Positions 19,000-24,218 of a stretch of DNA of 64,000 bases are shown here, one piece after another (the first letter of the stretch is position 1; each line of letters starts with the position of its first letter). The position numbers were made by a program, and so were the translations under genes. The DNA comes from a virus (lineage: Duplodnaviria > Caudoviricetes): IMG/VR virus record IMGVR_UViG_3300028864_000017, one strand, 5' to 3'. The notes beneath the pieces were generated by a model. That model did not search any database. It was not told the DNA's origin and saw only the letters and a program-made list of their open reading frames with translations.

Positions 19000-19113
19000 T
19001 ACTATCATATTAAAAGAAAATAAAAAATAGAAAAAAATGACTTTTTTTCTATTATATATAACAAAGAATAAACTTTATAGAAAATAAAAACTAATATAAA
19101 AAAGCAAAACAAG

Positions 19114-19203
19114 ATGTATCGTAATCTATATATAAATGAGGAAATGTGTAACAACGAAATTATCAATAATATTGATGATACATCCCAATTGACTGAGAAA
19201 TAA
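19114..19203 (+). CDS. putative attenuator leader peptide 1
   Basis: 29 aa MYRNLYINEEMCNNEIINNIDDTSQLTEK followed by terminator. Confidence 0.55.
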   Translation: MYRNLYINEEMCNNEIINNIDDTSQLTEK

Positions 19204-19228
19204 AATTAAGGCTTATGCCTATAATTAT

Positions 19229-19262
19229 AAATCCAGTCAATTAAAAAATGACTGGATTTTTT
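19229..19262 (+). terminator. attenuator-type terminator 1
   Basis: aaatccagtca/tgactggattt stem with T tract; 5' arm complementary to 19187-19195. Confidence 0.75.
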
Positions 19263-19265
19263 GTT

Positions 19266-19499
19266 ATGAAAAAAGTTAAAGAAAATAAAATTGATGAATC
19301 AGCAGAAGTAGTAAATAAAATTCAAAAAAATTATGATGAACTGAAAAGGAAATCTGATAGAACTGAAAAATTTATAATGTTTGCTGATAAAATCAAAATT
19401 GATTATAGTGAAGTTCCTAAAACAGAAAAAGGAATGAATTCAAAAGCAAAAGAGATTGCTAAGAAACTTTATAAGAAAATAGATAAAGAAAAAGATTAA
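19266..19499 (+). CDS. small basic hypothetical protein
   Basis: ATG just after terminator; Lys/Glu-rich. Confidence 0.65.
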   Translation: MKKVKENKIDESAEVVNKIQKNYDELKRKSDRTEKFIMFADKIKIDYSEVPKTEKGMNSKAKEIAKKLYKKIDKEKD

Positions 19500-19506
19500 A
19501 ATATAT

Positions 19507-19578
19507 CGCGCGGTAGGGAAGTGATACCCCGCAAGGCTCATAACCTTGAGAACGCTGGTTTGAGTCCAGCCTGCGCAA
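19507..19578 (+). tRNA. tRNA-Met(CAT), initiator-like
   Basis: Cloverleaf; C1:A72 mismatch; caagg-ctCATaa-ccttg. Confidence 0.85.
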
Positions 19579-19583
19579 CAATT

Positions 19584-19664
19584 AAAAAACTATATTGAAC
19601 AGCACCTCACTGGTAATGGGGACAATGCGAGTACACTAGCAGCTAAACTCAAAATAGTTTTTTT
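19584..19664 (+). ncRNA. candidate structured RNA of unknown type
   Basis: GC-richer insert closed by aaaaaactat/atagtttttt stem, with internal hairpins. Confidence 0.35.
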
Positions 19665-19691
19665 AAAAATAATAAATTAAAAGTAAATATC

Positions 19692-19826
19692 ATGAATAAC
19701 ATTAATAACATATACAGCATTTATCGCAATTGTAATATTAATTACAATATGGAAGAGATATGTATTAATATGATTAATAATGATTATATTAATGATGATG
19801 AAAATAATGTAGGAAGAACTGGATAA
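19692..19826 (+). CDS. putative attenuator leader peptide 2
   Basis: 44 aa MNNINNIYSIYRNCNINYNMEEICINMINNDYINDDENNVGRTG, 14 Asn. Confidence 0.55.
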   Translation: MNNINNIYSIYRNCNINYNMEEICINMINNDYINDDENNVGRTG

Positions 19827-19852
19827 GTTAAAAAATTATTATGTGAATAATA

Positions 19853-19890
19853 AAAAAACTCAGTTCTTAAAAATAAGAACTGAGTTTTTT
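19853..19890 (+). terminator. attenuator-type terminator 2
   Basis: aaaaactcagttctta/taagaactgagttttt stem; 5' arm complementary to 19814-19821. Confidence 0.8.
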
Positions 19891-19933
19891 ATTTTTAAAT
19901 GCTCTTTGAAATACTAGATAATGAATAATAAAT

Positions 19934-20016
19934 GGGAGTAATGCTCAAATTGGTCAGGCGCAAAACTGTAAATTTTGTAACCTTTTAGGTCGTCAGTTCG
20001 AATCTGGCTGCTCCCA
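19934..20016 (+). tRNA. tRNA-Tyr(GTA)
   Basis: caaaa-ctGTAaa-ttttg; variable arm; TTCGAAT. Confidence 0.9.
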
Positions 20017-20026
20017 CAAAAAACAC

Positions 20027-20098
20027 GATGCGTTCGTATATCGGAAAGTACTCTAGGTTTTCAACCTAGCAAGATGAGTTCAACTCTCATACGCATTA
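20027..20098 (+). tRNA. tRNA-Glu(TTC)
   Basis: ctagg-ttTTCaa-cctag. Confidence 0.85.
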
Positions 20099-20106
20099 CA
20101 AAAAAT

Positions 20107-20179
20107 GGGATATAGGTCAAATGGTTAAGATGTCACCCCGTCACGGTGCACGGAGCGAGTTCGAATCTCGTATATCCCG
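20107..20179 (+). tRNA. tRNA-Asp(GTC)
   Basis: cacc-ccGTCac-ggtg; short variable loop. Confidence 0.85.
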
Positions 20180-20202
20180 CTTATTATCAAAAAATTAAAA
20201 AT

Positions 20203-20290
20203 GCATTGGTTGCTTTAGTCGGTCGAAAAGTCTGGTCTGTTAAACCAGTAAGAGTAATCTTCAACGTAGGTTCGAATCCTATCCAGTGCG
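20203..20290 (+). tRNA. atypical tRNA with GTT (Asn) anticodon and long variable arm
   Basis: GCATTGG/CCAGTGC acceptor, G73, ctggt-ctGTTaa-accag, V-arm aaga-gtaa-tctt. Confidence 0.75.
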
Positions 20291-20296
20291 CAAAAA

Positions 20297-20368
20297 GGGA
20301 GTGTAGCTCAAAGGTAGAGCGTTTCGCTGTTAACGAAAGTGTTGGGATGTCGCAATTCCCCACTCCCG
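20297..20368 (+). tRNA. tRNA-Asn(GTT)
   Basis: tttcg-ctGTTaa-cgaaa; short variable loop; non-consensus T-loop (gtcgcaa). Confidence 0.8.
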
Positions 20369-20448
20369 CGAATAAATGATTAACTTTAAACTTTAATCTT
20401 TTTTAATATTATATATTTTTATATATACAATAAAAATATAAATAAATT

Positions 20449-21273
20449 ATGGAAAGCATTAAAACTAAAATATTATCATTAAGAAAAGAAGGAAAAACAT
20501 ACAATGAAATATCAGAATTATTAAATTGTTCAAAAGGTACAATATCTTATCATTGTAAAAAATTATATAATAATATTGAATTAAATAAAAAAAACACAAA
20601 ATTATCAAATTTAAAAAAATTAAAAAATATACCAAATATAGATTTTGGTGATGAGATATCTGATGAGATTTTTAAAAAAGTTATTGAATATCGAATAAAT
20701 GGTAATACATATGAAGAAATAATAGAAAAAACTAAATTATCTTTAGATAAAATTAAAAAAATATGCAGATTAAATAATATCAATGATGGTAATTATAAAA
20801 AAAATAATTATTGTAAAATATATGAAAACGTTAATAATGATGACGTTATTGAAATGCAAAAATACTATGATGAATGTAAAAGTACAAGAAAAGTATCTAA
20901 AAAATTCAATATTGGTAGATATCAAATATCTAAAATTTTAATTATAAATAAAAAAGAAAAATTATCTAAAGAAGAGTATAAAATAAAAAGAAAAAATGAT
21001 ATTGTAAATAATGTTATTAGTTGGAGAAAAGATAAAAAAAGGAAACTTGTTGAATATAAAGGAGGAAAATGCGAAAGGTGTGGATATGATAAATGTATAG
21101 ATGTATTTGATTTTCATCATAAAGATCCTACTCAAAAAGATTTTGGAATAAGTGCAAAATCTTATTCATATGAAAGATTAAAAAAAGAAGTTGATAAATG
21201 TATGTTAGTGTGTAAAAATTGTCACACAGAAATACATTATGAAATAAAAAATAAAAATGGTTCTGGCGCATAA
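20449..21273 (+). CDS. HNH homing endonuclease with N-terminal HTH repeats
   Basis: GGKCERCGY...FDFHHKDP...CMLVCKNCHTEIH; two HTH-like segments; free-standing in tRNA cluster. Confidence 0.9.
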   Translation: MESIKTKILSLRKEGKTYNEISELLNCSKGTISYHCKKLYNNIELNKKNTKLSNLKKLKNIPNIDFGDEISDEIFKKVIEYRINGNTYEEIIEKTKLSLDKIKKICRLNNINDGNYKKNNYCKIYENVNNDDVIEMQKYYDECKSTRKVSKKFNIGRYQISKILIINKKEKLSKEEYKIKRKNDIVNNVISWRKDKKRKLVEYKGGKCERCGYDKCIDVFDFHHKDPTQKDFGISAKSYSYERLKKEVDKCMLVCKNCHTEIHYEIKNKNGSGA

Positions 21274-21344
21274 CGGCTGGTGTACCTGACTGTCACTCAG
21301 GCTTCTCGTAAGGGATATAGGGAATTCGACTTTCCTCAGAACCG
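21259..21344 (+). tRNA. atypical tRNA with GTC (Asp) anticodon and long variable arm
   Basis: GGTTCTG/CAGAACC acceptor, G73, cctga-ctGTCac-tcagg, V-arm tctc-gtaa-ggga. Confidence 0.75.
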
Positions 21345-21354
21345 CAAAGATAAT

Positions 21355-21436
21355 GGAAATATCGCATAGTGGCAATTGCAACTGACTGTAAATCAGTTCT
21401 TTCACAAGTTCGTGGGTTCGAGTCCCTCTATTTCCA
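21355..21436 (+). tRNA. tRNA-Tyr(GTA)
   Basis: actga-ctGTAaa-tcagt. Confidence 0.9.
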
Positions 21437-21443
21437 CAAAAAT

Positions 21444-21517
21444 GACCGAGTGCCCGAATGGAATAAAGGGATAGTCTGCAAAACTATATTGTGTGGGTTC
21501 GAGTCCCACCTTGGCCT
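21444..21517 (+). tRNA. tRNA-Cys(GCA)
   Basis: atagt-ctGCAaa-actat; U73. Confidence 0.85.
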
Positions 21518-21530
21518 CAATGAACATTAT

Positions 21531-21600
21531 GCCGAAGCTTAGTGGAAAAGAGATTTCTCTCATAAGGAAATCCAAATGAGTTCGAACCTCATATTCGGTA
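21531..21600 (+). pseudogene. degenerate tRNA(CAT)
   Basis: Intact anticodon (ctCATaa) and T arms; 2-3 nt missing between acceptor and D arm. Confidence 0.5.
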
Positions 21601-21667
21601 CAGAGTTTATTATTATGACTAGTATCATACTAATAGTATGTTATGATTAATAAAAATAAACTAAAAT

Positions 21668-21741
21668 AGTCTTGTATATCAGTCGGTTAGATTGTCATCC
21701 TGATAAGATGGAGGTCGTGAGTTCAAGTCTCACCAGGACTA
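21668..21741 (+). tRNA. tRNA-Ile(GAT)
   Basis: catc-ctGATaa-gatg; canonical cloverleaf. Confidence 0.9.
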
Positions 21742-21752
21742 CTAAATAACAT

Positions 21753-21829
21753 TGGTGAATATACCCTCTGCCTGATAAGTAGTAGAAAGGTTAATTGGTC
21801 ACATGTGGGTTCAATTCCCACTTCACCAA
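21753..21829 (+). ncRNA. tRNA-like RNA (GAT) without D-arm; D-loop-like motif 3' of anticodon arm
   Basis: TGGTGAA/TTCACCA acceptor, ctgc-ctGATaa-gtag, aagg-ttaattggt, gtggg-ttcaatt-cccac. Confidence 0.7.
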
Positions 21830-21842
21830 CAATAAAAAACAC

Positions 21843-21921
21843 ACTGTCGTATCCCCACTGGCTTATATCCAGTCATTAACAAGGTAATTGGTGTATGAGG
21901 GTTCAAGTCCCTTCGGCAGTA
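21843..21921 (+). ncRNA. tRNA-like RNA (TAT) without D-arm; D-loop-like motif 3' of anticodon arm
   Basis: ACTGTCG/CGGCAGT acceptor, actgg-ctTATat-ccagt, aagg-taattggt, gaggg-ttcaagt-ccctt. Confidence 0.7.
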
Positions 21922-21934
21922 CAATAAACAACAA

Positions 21935-22059
21935 GGTAGTGTAACTCAAAAGCACAAAGGGGATAATTATGAAACTAGAATAAATAATTTGAAACGAGCG
22001 AAGGATAGAGTGCTGGGCCGATGTCTCAGAAGTTGATGGTTCGAGTCCATCTGCTACCA
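21935..22059 (+). tRNA. tRNA(GAT)-like gene with about 50-nt insertion in D-loop
   Basis: GGTAGTG/TGCTACC acceptor, actc/gagt D-stem, ctggg-ccGATgt-ctcag, TTCGAGT. Confidence 0.6.
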
Positions 22060-22068
22060 CAAAAATAT

Positions 22069-22151
22069 GTGATTAATATGACACAGGTAGTCATGTCAGT
22101 ATGTAAAACTGATCTCTTCGGAGGTTGTGGGTTCGAGCCCAACTAGTACCA
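22069..22151 (+). pseudogene. degenerate tRNA-Tyr(GTA)-like sequence
   Basis: tcagt-atGTAaa-actga, ttcg variable arm and T arm present; acceptor stem poorly paired. Confidence 0.4.
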
Positions 22152-22219
22152 CAAAAAATATTTAATACAATTTATATTATTTATATAATTATCACTATTT
22201 ATATATAAATAAAAAAAAT

Positions 22220-22759
22220 ATGAATAAATTAGTCGAGAAATTTAAATCATCACAAGAAAAATTTGCAATATTTTTATCAGATTCATTATCTAGTATGACA
22301 ATGTTTTGGATAATTACAATATTAGTTATATTTCCATTATTTTTTAGTCAGCCATCAGGTTTAGTTGCATGGATGCAATATTTAGTATCAGTTTTCTTTC
22401 AAGGAGTAGCATTACCAGTTTTAGGATATATTGCTAAGATAAGTGGAAGTAGAACTGATGCAATAATATCAAAGATTGAAGAATTATCCGAAAAAATAGA
22501 AGCTATGACAGAGCATATAAATGTTGATGTTGATGACATAAAAACTCATGTAGTTGATATTGATATTGAATTAAAAGATGTAGATACTGATGTTAGTGAC
22601 ATAAAAAGTCATGTTGATGATATAGATATTGAGTTAAAGTATGCTGACACAGACGTTAATGAAATACAAAATCATGTTGATAATATACAAGAAGATTTAA
22701 AAAATGTAGACTTTGACATAAATAACATTCAAGATAATATAGAAAAAGAAAAAAAATAA
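22220..22759 (+). CDS. membrane protein with C-terminal coiled-coil repeats
   Basis: Two TM helices followed by D/I/V-rich heptad repeats. Confidence 0.8.
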   Translation: MNKLVEKFKSSQEKFAIFLSDSLSSMTMFWIITILVIFPLFFSQPSGLVAWMQYLVSVFFQGVALPVLGYIAKISGSRTDAIISKIEELSEKIEAMTEHINVDVDDIKTHVVDIDIELKDVDTDVSDIKSHVDDIDIELKYADTDVNEIQNHVDNIQEDLKNVDFDINNIQDNIEKEKK

Positions 22760-22830
22760 TTTACATTAAAATTATCATTGTATAAAAATTTTAATATAAT
22801 TTGTACTATTTATACATAAAGACAAATGAT

Positions 22831-23211
22831 ATGGATAATTTAGTAGAAAATATTAAGTCGGAGCAAGAAAATATATCATTAAGAACTGATGATATTATTA
22901 CAAAGATAGAAGAGTTATCTAAAAAAATAGACACAATAACTGCACAAATAACAAATGAAGTTAGTGAAATAAAAAATATTATTTATGACATACAACAAAA
23001 TATAAAAAATGTTGATACTGATGTTGATAATATAGTAGGTAATGTAGGTGAAATAAAAGGAGAATTAAAGGATGTTGATTCTGATATTAGTAAAATCAAA
23101 GATGATATTAAAAATGATAATTTGGAAGATATTAAAGACAGTGAAGAATTAAAAAACGCAATAAAAAAGAAATCTGGTGGAATTACATATAATGTAGTTA
23201 TTCAACAATAA
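22831..23211 (+). CDS. coiled-coil protein paralogous to the C-terminus of 22220-22759
   Basis: RTDDIITKIEELSKKI versus RTDAIISKIEELSEKI. Confidence 0.7.
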   Translation: MDNLVENIKSEQENISLRTDDIITKIEELSKKIDTITAQITNEVSEIKNIIYDIQQNIKNVDTDVDNIVGNVGEIKGELKDVDSDISKIKDDIKNDNLEDIKDSEELKNAIKKKSGGITYNVVIQQ

Positions 23212-23274
23212 AAAATTTTTAATATTGAATATACAAAAAAATTGTGTATCTTTGTTTTTATTTAAAAAATCAAC

Positions 23275-23760
23275 ATGAAATACGGAATTTACACATTAGT
23301 AATTGAGAATTATATCACTAAAAATTTACCTCTACTAAGTACATTTTCATTAAAAATGGAATTCGGATGGGGTAATGGTTATATATTAATACCTAATAAT
23401 CATCCATCATATGGAGTTTCATATGATGATATGAATACAATAAGTGTACATGGAGGATTAACATATGGTCAATTTTTTGATTCTAAATCATTTTTAGAAT
23501 GGATTGATAATTTAGAAATTGATGGTGATGTAACAATAGATAATTATAAAAAATTAGATAATTATTGGATGATAGGATTTGATACTAATCATTATGGAGA
23601 TAGTATTGAAAAATGTTCTAAAGAATATGTAATACATCAATCTGAATATTTAATGGAACAATGTTTAAATAATAAAATAGAAGGAGTTATGAAATACAAA
23701 TTAGCATACTCAAGAAAAGAAAAATTAAAAAACATTAATCAAGTCATTAAAAATAAATGA
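23275..23760 (+). CDS. conserved phage protein of unknown function
   Basis: WGNGY..P..HP, VHGGLTY, W.IGFDTNH motifs; ends SRKEKLKNI; TATCTTTG upstream. Confidence 0.8.
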   Translation: MKYGIYTLVIENYITKNLPLLSTFSLKMEFGWGNGYILIPNNHPSYGVSYDDMNTISVHGGLTYGQFFDSKSFLEWIDNLEIDGDVTIDNYKKLDNYWMIGFDTNHYGDSIEKCSKEYVIHQSEYLMEQCLNNKIEGVMKYKLAYSRKEKLKNINQVIKNK

Positions 23761-23774
23761 GTAAATACTTACAT

Positions 23775-23846
23775 GTGCTTATAGTGTAATGGATAACACG
23801 TATCACTACGGATGATGAGTTGAAGGTTCGAGTCCTTCTAGGCATA
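23775..23846 (+). tRNA. tRNA-Arg(ACG)
   Basis: atca-ctACGga-tgat; canonical cloverleaf. Confidence 0.9.
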
Positions 23847-23921
23847 CAAAAAAATCAATTTGGACTAATTTAATTTTATATATAAGTTAATTAATAAACT
23901 TAAAATTAAAAAATTAAATAA

Positions 23922-24218
23922 ATGAATAAAATTGAAGAAATTTTCAAATCTTGGAGAATATCATTCAACCCAAATGATGAGCAATCAGATCTTGCAAGTA
24001 AAAGAATTGAAATATGTGATGGGTGTGAGCATAAAGAGATGTTAAATATAGGAGAGATTGATATATTTGCAAGATGTAATTTATGTGGCTGTGCGTTAAA
24101 AGCAAAAATATTCACACCTAAAACATATCAAGATATCGGAGGAACATGTCCTATTCAAAAATGGACTGAAGTTGAAAAAGAGCATTTAGATTCAATTGAA
24201 AATGGAAAGAAAATTTAA
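23922..24218 (+). CDS. small Cys-rich phage protein
   Basis: RIEICDGC...CNLCGC.LKAK...CPIQKW. Confidence 0.8.
   Translation: MNKIEEIFKSWRISFNPNDEQSDLASKRIEICDGCEHKEMLNIGEIDIFARCNLCGCALKAKIFTPKTYQDIGGTCPIQKWTEVEKEHLDSIENGKKI

What the first reader, a model, noticed from the sequence alone, without database searches (positions are those of the whole stretch)
21259..21344. Asp-anticodon tRNA with long variable arm and non-canonical position 8
The anticodon is GTC with a long arm (tctc-gtaa-ggga, the same GTAA loop as the Asn variant), G73 and G at position 8. It can be drawn as 7/5 or, using a G-U pair, as an 8/4 acceptor/T-stem fold. A canonical tRNA-Asp is present at 20107. Together with the Asn variant it suggests a deliberate second set of class II-bodied tRNAs reading Asx codons.
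Basis: partly seen in the sequence, partly recalled or inferred. Interest (0 to 1): 0.7.

Follow-up and report, generated by a model that had tools for sequence, protein, structure and literature searches.

The report
Phage aspartate tRNA with extra arm
This giant peat-soil phage carries a real, conserved aspartate tRNA built with the long extra arm that textbooks reserve for serine, leucine and tyrosine tRNAs; it most likely still carries aspartate, and it belongs to a wider, apparently undescribed phage habit of keeping long-armed copies of ordinary tRNAs.

Summary
Window 21259-21344 (+) folds as a 7/5 cloverleaf with anticodon GUC, G73, G at position 8 and an 18-nt variable region (4-bp stem, GUAA loop). 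ARAGORN at default settings and Rfam's tRNA model both miss it. It also has an unusual A53-U61 T-stem pair.

It is not a chance fold. Pattern scans of viral contigs found 25 distinct tRNA-Asp genes with the same D-arm, and their stems co-vary (99.7% of cells paired, 17 of 21 pairs with double changes). Their variable regions run from 5 to 20 nt, and most long ones are hairpins with unrelated sequences.

The 8/4 drawing is not favoured. Charging by SerRS or TyrRS is not supported: every aspartate identity mark is present. Across phage loci, long-armed tRNAs always keep the discriminator of their short isoacceptor. In some phages the long-armed gene is the only Asp tRNA found. Three near-complete relatives encode no AspRS.

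The "second set" idea is partly right. One complete 360-kb phage carries short plus long-armed versions for about eleven amino acids.

Best reading: an Asp-charged decoder. The arm's purpose is unproven; it may change how tRNA-cutting defences see the molecule. This scan has flagged long-armed phage Asn, Lys, Ile and Asp-like tRNAs before on other DNA. I found no paper describing them.

The parts
21259..21344 (+). Long-armed tRNA-Asp(GUC) gene, 86 nt, no encoded CCA
   Evidence: Cloverleaf read from sequence. ARAGORN -ps90 calls tRNA-Asp at 21258-21345. Family covariation.
21266..21283 (+). G8, C9 and the D-arm (GCAT / AACGGCTG / GTGT). It can be read as a 3-bp stem with a 10-nt loop (class II style) or a 4-bp stem with U13.G22.
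   Evidence: The core of this motif is invariant across 30 phage tRNAs (Asp, Met, Val, Gln); only three positions vary, Y16, Y19 and Y25. The same arm occurs in CPR/DPANN tRNA-Ser.
21290..21296 (+). Anticodon loop CUGUCAC (U33, G34 U35 C36, A37, C38), identical to that of E. coli and Chitinophaga tRNA-Asp
21302..21319 (+). 18-nt variable region: CU, stem UCUC/GGGA (21304-21307 with 21312-21315), loop GUAA (21308-21311), and 3' tail UAUA
   Evidence: RNAfold gives -3.0 kcal/mol. Over the 20 long-armed relatives the summed hairpin energy is -34.9 against -4.7 +/- 2.7 for shuffles, 0 of 1000 shuffles as low.
21320..21336 (+). T-arm GGGAA-UUCGACU-UUCCU, with G49.U65 (an Asp hallmark) and unusual A52-U62 and A53-U61 pairs
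21344..21344 (+). Discriminator G73
   Evidence: G73 is present in all 25 Asp family members.
20107..20179 (+). Short tRNA-Asp(GUC) partner gene with A8, C33 and a U27.C43 mismatch
   Evidence: Rfam 47.3 bits, ARAGORN -ps90. Other peat contigs read T at 20139, i.e. U33.
20203..20291 (+). Long-armed tRNA-Asn(GUU), G73, variable stem AAGA/UCUU with a GUAA loop
   Evidence: ARAGORN default, Rfam 38.9 bits
20449..21273 (+). HTH plus HNH-like homing-endonuclease ORF inserted in the tRNA array. Its stop codon TAA (21271-21273) lies inside the tRNA D-loop.

Best explanation
It is a working phage tRNA-Asp isoacceptor built on a class II-shaped body. Shown: it is a conserved, structurally constrained gene of a phage tRNA-Asp lineage. 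Inferred: it is transcribed with the surrounding same-strand tRNA array and cut out by host RNase P and 3' processing enzymes. CCA is then added, since the gene ends G-CAAAG. The host aspartyl-tRNA synthetase charges it with aspartate through G73, G34-U35-C36, C38, G1-C72 and G2-C71, and it reads GAU/GAC on the ribosome. The extra arm, together with the class II-type D-arm, changes the molecule's outline without changing its identity. My best guess for why phages keep such copies beside, or instead of, short ones is that the altered shape changes how tRNA-directed nucleases or other tRNA-binding proteins of the host see it. I put this arm-function step at roughly one in three.
For: Family and structure: 25 distinct tRNA-Asp genes in viral contigs share the D-arm and the GUC anticodon. 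On the 30-sequence alignment the 7/5 cloverleaf is 99.7% paired, with 17 of 21 pairs changed on both sides and 0 of 500 shuffles as good. Against its nearest relative L005, all three differing stem pairs (4:69, 52:62, 53:61) are double changes that keep pairing.

Extra arm: 14 of 20 long arms are hairpins of unrelated sequence. Their summed energy is -34.9 against -4.7 +/- 2.7 for shuffles.

Asp ancestry: the anticodon loop is that of E. coli aspV and Chitinophaga tRNA-Asp, and group A relatives also share their GCGGG/CCCGU T-arm; the window keeps only its G49.U65 wobble. L012's anticodon arm is identical to the Chitinophaga one.

Identity: all five strong aspartate determinants plus G1-C72 and G2-C71 are present (rules from PMC9976931). 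[quoted passage not shown] In phage loci, long-armed tRNAs always carry the discriminator of the short tRNA with the same anticodon: Cys U, Gly U, His C, Thr U, Trp G, Lys/Val/Ile/Pro A, Asn/Asp G.

Use as the phage's own Asp tRNA: the long-armed gene is the only Asp tRNA found in arrays such as L029, L035 and L054, and in the tRNA region of the 93%-complete 272-kb phage G003. No AspRS/AsnRS-type gene (PF00152) occurs in G000 or in the near-complete relatives G001-G003, so host AspRS must serve.

This genome: the long-armed copy has the standard anticodon loop while the short copy has C33. The gene is identical in contigs of two other peat samples.

Arm function: published cases exist where defence nucleases cut or read the variable loop and a phage tRNA escapes through a different variable loop (PMC13096335). 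G000 encodes an RtcB RNA-repair ligase.
Against: No RNA data exist: no listed sequencing run is RNA, so expression, processing and charging are all inferred. G8, A53-U61 and the 18-nt arm might weaken folding or recognition by processing enzymes, EF-Tu or AspRS. Class II synthetases approach tRNA from the variable-loop side (established knowledge), so an arm there could hinder AspRS. The D-arm, G1-C72, G2-C71, G73 and the long arm are also features read by SerRS, so some serylation cannot be excluded. Nothing here shows that the arm protects against any nuclease, and long arms can equally be a target (Septu and retron-Eco7 cut the tRNA-Tyr variable arm).
Confidence: 0.6

Rival explanations
1. 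It is a tRNA-shaped RNA that works outside routine decoding, for example as a decoy or sponge for a tRNA-targeting defence nuclease or toxin, or as a regulator. It would keep aspartate marks only so that it is recognised.
For: It is kept beside a short Asp gene as a conserved doublet in 12 of 20 distinct long-armed lineages, which suggests non-redundant roles. It carries several rule-breaking positions (G8, A53-U61). Family members with U37 loops (CUGUCUA, CUGUCUC) look poorly suited to decoding. Phage tRNAs acting as decoys or supplements against tRNA nucleases are discussed in print (PMC13096335).
Against: The window copy has a textbook Asp anticodon loop with A37 and C38. In several phages the long-armed gene is the only Asp tRNA found. 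It has full acceptor, T-loop and G18G19 features and sits inside ordinary tRNA operons.
Confidence: 0.15
2. It is charged wholly or partly by SerRS (or another class II-arm-reading enzyme) and so inserts serine at Asp codons. This would be deliberate mistranslation or recoding, like allo-tRNA(GUC).
For: Serine identity rests mainly on the long arm and ignores the anticodon, helped by G73, G1-C72 and G2-C71 (PMC9976931), and all of these are present. The exact D-arm is found in cells only in tRNA-Ser, of CPR/DPANN organisms. Allo-tRNAs with GUC anticodons exist in soil metagenomes (PMC5389517).
Against: Discriminators of long-armed phage tRNAs track the anticodon's amino acid and are not uniformly G73. 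The arm is short (4 bp) with a 4-nt 3' tail, whereas the phage tRNA-Ser genes average 4.9 bp and 1.5 nt. One subgroup, the sole Asp tRNA of its phages, has an unstructured A-rich extension. The same lineage includes short-armed tRNA-Asp. Ser at every GAY codon would damage the phage's own proteins. AspRS determinants are complete.
Confidence: 0.1
3. It is a decaying or neutral duplicate: a tRNA-Asp gene whose variable loop took up an AT-rich insertion and is drifting, with no function of its own.
For: It is missed by standard finders. It has G8, A53-U61 and a weak U.G-containing arm. The genome is 24% G+C. A homing-endonuclease gene was inserted right against its 5' end. Its fold alone has z = -1.39.
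Against: All stem differences from relatives are compensatory. Arm hairpins are kept with unrelated sequences across lineages. The gene is identical in other peat samples. The same design is the sole Asp tRNA in other phages.
Confidence: 0.07

Closest known systems
Canonical bacterial and phage tRNA-Asp(GUC), class I (e.g. E. coli aspV; Chitinophaga tRNA-Asp)
   Same: 7/5 cloverleaf, anticodon loop CUGUCAC, G73, G1-C72, G2-C71, G10, G49.U65 wobble in the T stem, UUCGA T-loop and G18G19.
   Different: G8-C9 instead of U8-A9; an 18-nt hairpin arm instead of a 5-nt variable loop; a class II-type D-arm; A52-U62 and A53-U61 pairs; not detected by RF00005 or by default ARAGORN.
allo-tRNAs, including allo-tRNA(GUC) (Mukai et al. 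2017, PMC5389517)
   Same: Long variable arm, G73, and a GUC anticodon on a non-Asp-looking body. Both come from soil or peat metagenomes and are missed by standard tools.
   Different: Allo-tRNAs have an 8/4 or 9/3 acceptor/T arrangement, a tRNA-Sec-like long D-stem with a tetraloop, and longer anticodon stems. This one has a 3-4-bp D-stem with a GG-containing 8-10-nt loop, a 5-bp anticodon stem and a favoured 7/5 arrangement. It sits in phage tRNA operons, not next to toxin-antitoxin genes.
Class II bacterial tRNAs, especially tRNA-Ser of CPR bacteria and DPANN archaea
   Same: Identical D-arm including G8-C9 (GCGCAUAAYGGYUGGUGC in Ser; the window ends in U25), a variable-arm hairpin often capped by GNRA, UUCGACU T-loop in most (6 of the 8), and G73.
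   Different: The anticodon is GUC, not a serine anticodon. The acceptor stem is not the GGAGGGG type. The arm is shorter, with a longer 3' tail. The anticodon and T arms are Asp-like.
Noncanonical V-arm tRNAs of nematodes (nev-tRNAs; Hamashima et al., cited in PMC5389517)
   Same: A long variable arm on tRNAs whose anticodons belong to class I amino acids.
   Different: From memory, nev-tRNAs are eukaryotic, are charged with leucine against their anticodon, and are few. Here the discriminators argue for cognate charging. This comparison is a recalled lead, not a test.
Phage tRNAs that evade tRNA-targeting defences (T5 tRNA-Tyr versus retron-Eco7/Septu; PMC13096335, PMC11555353)
   Same: A phage-encoded isoacceptor whose variable region differs from the host's. 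tRNA genes lie next to a homing endonuclease within a tRNA-rich region.
   Different: Those cases concern a tRNA that is class II anyway (Tyr), and escape was shown experimentally. Here an arm is added to a class I amino acid's tRNA and no defence system is identified.

Membership tests
Elongator tRNA-Asp | Cloverleaf with 7-bp acceptor and 5-bp T stem supported by covariation | tested here: met
   99.7% of cells paired, 17 of 21 pairs with double changes, 0 of 500 shuffles as good
Elongator tRNA-Asp | Anticodon loop with U33, G34-U35-C36, purine 37 and C38 | tested here: met
   CUGUCAC at 21290-21296, the same as E. coli aspV
Elongator tRNA-Asp | G73 with G1-C72 and G2-C71 (bacterial aspartate identity, PMC9976931) | tested here: met
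Elongator tRNA-Asp | U8 and a short (4-5 nt) variable loop | tested here: not met
   G8 at 21266 and an 18-nt variable region at 21302-21319
Elongator tRNA-Asp | G53-C61 pair and UUCGA T-loop | tested here: inconclusive
   The T-loop UUCGACU is present but the pair is A53-U61. The other 29 alignment sequences and 299 of 304 phage-locus tRNAs have G-C.
Elongator tRNA-Asp | Reaches the Rfam RF00005 gathering score | tested here: not met
   No tRNA hit at E<=1 or at E<=10 on the isolated stretch. A family member in G003 scores 45.2 bits.
Elongator tRNA-Asp | Charged with aspartate and used in translation | not testable with these tools
   No RNA run listed; needs biochemistry
allo-tRNA (Mukai 2017) | 8/4 or 9/3 acceptor/T-stem arrangement | tested here: inconclusive
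   Within the Asp genes, G8.U65 and G49.U65 are both invariant. In same-D-arm relatives 49:65 co-varies and 8:65 fails in 3 sequences. 7/5 is favoured by 1.1-1.5 kcal/mol.
allo-tRNA (Mukai 2017) | tRNA-Sec-like D-arm (long stem, tetraloop) and extended anticodon stem | tested here: not met
   3-4-bp D-stem, 8-10-nt loop with GG, 5-bp anticodon stem
Class II tRNA (Ser/Leu/Tyr type) | Variable arm longer than 10 nt forming a stem-loop | tested here: met
   4-bp stem with a GUAA loop; family hairpins significant
Class II tRNA (Ser/Leu/Tyr type) | 3-bp D-stem with enlarged D-loop | tested here: inconclusive
   It can be read as 3 bp plus 10 nt or as 4 bp (with U13.G22) plus 8 nt. The same arm is used by CPR tRNA-Ser. 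Other long-armed phage tRNAs have class II-type D-arms.
Class II tRNA (Ser/Leu/Tyr type) | Anticodon of Ser, Leu, Tyr or Sec | tested here: not met
   GUC

The most novel reading that the evidence does not exclude
Huge phages maintain a parallel, class II-shaped set of tRNAs that keep their cognate amino-acid identities. In one complete 360-kb genome, short plus long-armed versions exist for about eleven amino acids. This tRNA-Asp would be one member of such a set. The altered body shape would be a general countermeasure in tRNA-directed warfare: either escape from host nucleases and toxins that read the class I outline, or survival of a phage-made attack on host tRNAs.
Probability: 0.25. Interest if true: 0.85.

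Novelty: new variant of a known kind. Interest (0 to 1): 0.62.

Why it matters
Textbooks restrict long variable arms in bacteria to Leu, Ser, Tyr and Sec tRNAs. A conserved class II-shaped tRNA-Asp, and the parallel long-armed sets seen in related huge phages, would show that tRNA body plan and amino-acid identity can be uncoupled in nature on a large scale. There is also a practical point. Default ARAGORN and Rfam miss this gene, so phage tRNA repertoires and codon-supply analyses are under-counted. If the arm alters recognition by defence nucleases, it is a new kind of phage counter-defence. If AspRS accepts it, it shows how tolerant class IIb synthetases are of tRNA shape, and it could provide natural scaffolds for tRNA engineering.

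Tried and rejected
RNA evidence: the look-up of sequencing runs listed no RNA holder. Only DNA contigs could be laid, so nothing can be said about expression or ends.

Promoter and terminator scan of 19000-24200: 38 promoter-like sites against 39 expected, so it was uninformative.

BLAST of the 84-86-nt genes against E. coli genomes and against deposited phage genomes gave no match, probably because the queries are too short and divergent. I could therefore name no cultured phage carrying the family.

The 4.6-kb region search in deposited phages hit mainly the HNH gene and generic tRNAs. LR756501's array has only short Asp genes.

The genome-contig scan was dominated by chance matches: about 277 were expected and only 8 of the 120 loci returned were tRNAs.

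The family covariance model found only ordinary tRNAs in four Bacteroidota genomes, too few to say the family is absent from cells.

The Mukai 2017 supplements are not held, so I could not compare with their (8/4) tRNA-Ser or allo-tRNA(GUC) sequences.

The idea that the shared GUAA loop links the Asp and Asn arms was rejected, because GNRA loops are common in all variable arms here.

Derivation from the neighbouring tRNA-Tyr was considered because its D-arm and anticodon stem are similar. I set it aside because the D-arm is shared with short-armed Asp, Met, Val and Gln tRNAs.

Four literature searches found no description of long-armed phage tRNA-Asp, and two more found none either.

Full report
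**Context.** The window is the minus strand of positions 9000-72999 of a 143-kb IMG/VR virus record. CheckV estimates the record as about 20% complete, so this is a fragment of a very large phage. It is 24% G+C, and the same DNA occurs in many peat metagenomes. The element lies in a same-strand tRNA array. The order, by ARAGORN and Rfam, is: Met, Tyr, Glu, Asp, long-armed Asn, Asn, an inserted ORF, this element, Tyr, Cys, Met-like, Ile, and further odd tRNAs.

**The observation.** Read directly, 21259-21344 gives a perfect 7-bp acceptor stem, then G8 and C9. The D-arm is GCAT/AACGGCTG/GTGT, followed by A26. The anticodon arm is 5 bp with loop CUGUCAC. The variable region is 18 nt: CU, UCUC, GUAA, GGGA, UAUA. 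The T-arm is GGGAA-UUCGACU-UUCCU, and the discriminator is G73.
- Default ARAGORN and Rfam's tRNA model do not report it, even at E<=10 on the isolated stretch.
- ARAGORN calls it tRNA-Asp only at a relaxed threshold.
- Folded alone it is unremarkable: MFE -25.6 kcal/mol, z = -1.39. The cloverleaf lies at -25.1 kcal/mol.
- An extra oddity is that T-stem pairs 52:62 and 53:61 are A-U. G53-C61 holds in 299 of 304 tRNAs of the phage loci I collected.

**Is it more than chance?** Yes, because it has a family.
- Exact-pattern scans of viral contigs with the anticodon arm plus a long spacer, and then with the D-arm, returned dozens of loci.
- After filtering for a complete cloverleaf there are 25 distinct tRNA-Asp(GUC) sequences with the same G8-C9 D-arm. 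There are also two Met, two Val and one Gln tRNA with that arm.
- On the 30-sequence alignment the 7/5 cloverleaf is paired in 99.7% of cells. Seventeen of 21 pairs show changes on both sides. No shuffle of 500 reaches the observed values, and sliding the partners destroys the signal.
- Compared with the closest relative (L005), all three stem pairs that differ (4:69, 52:62, 53:61) differ on both sides and stay paired. The odd A-U pairs in the window's T stem are therefore compensated substitutions, not decay.
- Contigs from two other peat samples carry the gene without any difference.

**The extra arm.** Within the Asp family the variable region is 5-6 nt in five sequences, 13 nt in two, and 15-20 nt in eighteen.
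- Fourteen of the twenty long regions fold as hairpins of 3-6 bp whose sequences are unrelated between lineages.
- The summed hairpin energy is -34.9 kcal/mol against -4.7 +/- 2.7 for shuffles, 0 of 1000 as low.
- Six of the twenty do not fold as a hairpin; four of them form one subgroup with an A-rich extension of 18-19 nt.
- GNRA loops such as the window's GUAA cap many variable arms of Ser, Leu and Tyr tRNAs as well as of the unusual ones. The loop shared with the Asn gene therefore says nothing special.

**7/5 or 8/4?** Inside the Asp genes G8, G49 and U65 never vary, so both drawings are an invariant G.U.
- The five non-Asp tRNAs with the same D-arm help decide. Their 49:65 pair is UA, UA, AU, CG or GC, always paired, whereas G8 cannot pair with position 65 in three of them.
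- G49.U65 is also the normal state of bacterial tRNA-Asp, as in E. coli aspV and Chitinophaga.
- Nearest-neighbour energies favour 7/5 by 1.1-1.5 kcal/mol in all 25 members.
- I therefore take 7/5 as the architecture, but only probing would prove it.

**Whose body is it?** The body looks mixed.
- The anticodon loop (CUGUCAC) is that of bacterial tRNA-Asp, and relatives such as L009 also share its GCGGG/CCCGU T-arm; the window keeps only the G49.U65 wobble. One relative even has the Chitinophaga anticodon arm exactly.
- The D-arm is of class II type. A scan of 185,579 species' genomes for it returned mostly chance matches, but the eight that are tRNAs are all tRNA-Ser of CPR bacteria or a DPANN archaeon. 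Those have G73 and a 14-18-nt arm.
- More generally, in the phage loci the long-armed tRNAs of class I amino acids have class II-type D-arms (mostly 3 bp, loop about 10.4 nt). Their short counterparts have 4 bp and 8.8 nt.

**Which amino acid?** All strong aspartate determinants (G73, G34, U35, C36, C38) and the bacterial G1-C72/G2-C71 pairs are present. The identity review reports that even tRNA-Asp variants lacking D and T arms remain aspartylated if G73 and the anticodon are kept (PMC9976931).
- The most telling comparative result concerns the discriminator. Across the unique tRNAs of the phage loci, long-armed tRNAs carry the same predominant discriminator as short tRNAs with the same anticodon. 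The pattern is Cys U, Gly U, Thr U, His C, Trp G, Asn and Asp G, and Lys, Val, Ile, Pro, Gln and Glu A. If the arms redirected them to SerRS, LeuRS or TyrRS, one would expect uniform G73 or A73.
- The long-armed Asp gene is the only Asp tRNA found in several broad arrays (L029, L035/L054). The same holds for the tRNA region of G003, a 272-kb genome rated 93% complete, where the Rfam tRNA scan of the whole record found no tRNA outside that region.
- No AspRS/AsnRS-type gene (PF00152) is present in this record or in three near-complete relatives of 272-362 kb. The host enzyme must therefore do the charging.
- Serine identity does rest mainly on the arm plus G73 and G1-C72/G2-C71, so partial serylation cannot be excluded.
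- However, the Asp arms are shorter and have longer 3' tails (3.4 bp, 2.8 nt) than those of the phage tRNA-Ser genes (4.9 bp, 1.5 nt).

**A second set?** In the window the long-armed Asp and Asn each have a short partner. The short Asp (20107-20179) has A8 and C33, while contigs of related peat strains read T at that position. In this phage the long-armed copy is therefore the one with the orthodox anticodon loop.
- In twelve of twenty distinct long-armed lineages a short Asp gene lies in the same locus, in eleven of them within about 400 nt, although the two genes are not similar in sequence. That speaks for two maintained types.
- In G001, a complete 360-kb phage with terminal repeats and about 60 tRNA genes, ARAGORN finds short plus long-armed versions for Asn, Asp, Cys, Gln, Gly, His, Ile, Lys, Met, Thr and Val, and a long-armed Trp.
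- Even at ARAGORN's default stringency, the collected loci hold long-armed Cys, Pro, Gln, His, Val, Asn, Met, Thr, Trp, Glu and Ile tRNAs.

**Mechanism.**
- What is shown: a conserved, structurally constrained tRNA gene of the Asp lineage with a class II outline.
- What is inferred: co-transcription with the array, RNase P and 3' processing, CCA addition, aspartylation by host AspRS, and reading of GAY codons. The gene lacks CCA, and relatives G001 and G002 encode a CCA-adding enzyme.
- Why the arm? I can only offer a guess. Septu and retron-Eco7 cut tRNA-Tyr in its variable arm, and T5's tRNA-Tyr escapes through a different variable loop. Homing endonucleases in tRNA regions can amplify such genes (PMC13096335).
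- This phage encodes an RtcB RNA-repair ligase. It also has an HTH/HNH-type homing-endonuclease ORF wedged into the array. A change of outline that alters recognition by tRNA-directed nucleases is therefore plausible, but nothing here tests it.

**Comparison with known kinds.**
- It is not an allo-tRNA. It lacks the tRNA-Sec-like D-arm and the extended anticodon stem, and the 8/4 arrangement is not favoured.
- It is best filed as a structural variant of tRNA-Asp that fails three textbook features: U8, a short variable loop and G53-C61.
- I found no paper describing long-armed phage tRNA-Asp.
- Earlier notes of this scan report the same general design on other DNA, for phage Asn, Lys and Ile tRNAs and for Asp-like RNAs with U37 in Bacteroidota and their phages. 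My family includes U37 members. I did not find it in four Bacteroidota genomes, which is too small a sample to conclude anything.

**Verdict.** Most likely this is an Asp-charged, class II-shaped phage isoacceptor. The function of the arm remains open. The finding is a new variant of a known kind.

Noticed in passing
L080-L083 (G001:C1:109000-134000 and 164000-193500): A complete 360-kb phage genome holds about 60 tRNA genes. For Asn, Asp, Cys, Gln, Gly, His, Ile, Lys, Met, Thr and Val there is both a short (70-75 nt) and a long-armed (83-95 nt) gene, plus a long-armed Trp. Discriminators fit the anticodon's amino acid.
   Followed up: partly
L096, L106, L130, L131, L160, L172, L174, L190: tRNA-Ser genes of CPR bacteria (Saccharibacteria, Yanofskybacteria, Staskawiczbacteria) and a Nanoarchaeota MAG carry G8-C9 and exactly the D-arm of the phage Asp family. 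G8 can pair with position 65 in most of them, so they might be 8/4 tRNA-Ser.
   Followed up: partly
window 20107-20179 (position 20139): The short tRNA-Asp has C at position 33 (normally an invariant U), A8 and a U27.C43 mismatch. Contigs of related peat strains and the L005 orthologue have T at that position.
   Followed up: partly
window 20449-21273: A 274-aa ORF with N-terminal helix-turn-helix modules and a C-terminal HNH-like motif is inserted between tRNA genes. Its DNA resembles annotated HNH endonuclease genes of jumbo phages. It runs 15 nt into the tRNA-Asp and stops at the TAA in the tRNA's D-loop, so 5' processing of the tRNA would remove its stop codon.
   Followed up: partly
window 21401-21413 (within tRNA-Tyr 21355-21437): Contigs from other peat samples that match this tRNA-Tyr at about 89% identity differ from it mostly inside its variable arm, including one-base indels.
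   Followed up: no
L011:132-227, L018:14507-14602, L026:11285-11379: tRNA-Pro(UGG) genes of 94-96 nt with an 8-bp variable-arm stem, a class II-type D-arm and A73, next to an ordinary 77-nt tRNA-Pro.
   Followed up: no
L039:5707-5796 and L075:3938-4027: In an array of about 34 tRNA genes the only tRNA-Trp(CCA) is 88-90 nt, with a serine-type D-arm (GCC-GAGUGGUUGAA-GGC), a 5-bp variable arm and G73.
   Followed up: no
G000:C1:80166-81335 (outside the window): The phage encodes an RtcB-family RNA ligase (182 bits), the kind of enzyme that reseals cleaved tRNAs. The relatives G001-G004 lack it, while G001 and G002 encode a CCA-adding enzyme.
   Followed up: no
L011, L018, L020, L022, L039, L045, L048, L071: Family members with anticodon loops CUGUCUA or CUGUCUC, i.e. 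a pyrimidine at position 37. These are mostly the short-armed ones. This may connect to the U37 Asp-like RNAs noted earlier in this scan.
   Followed up: no
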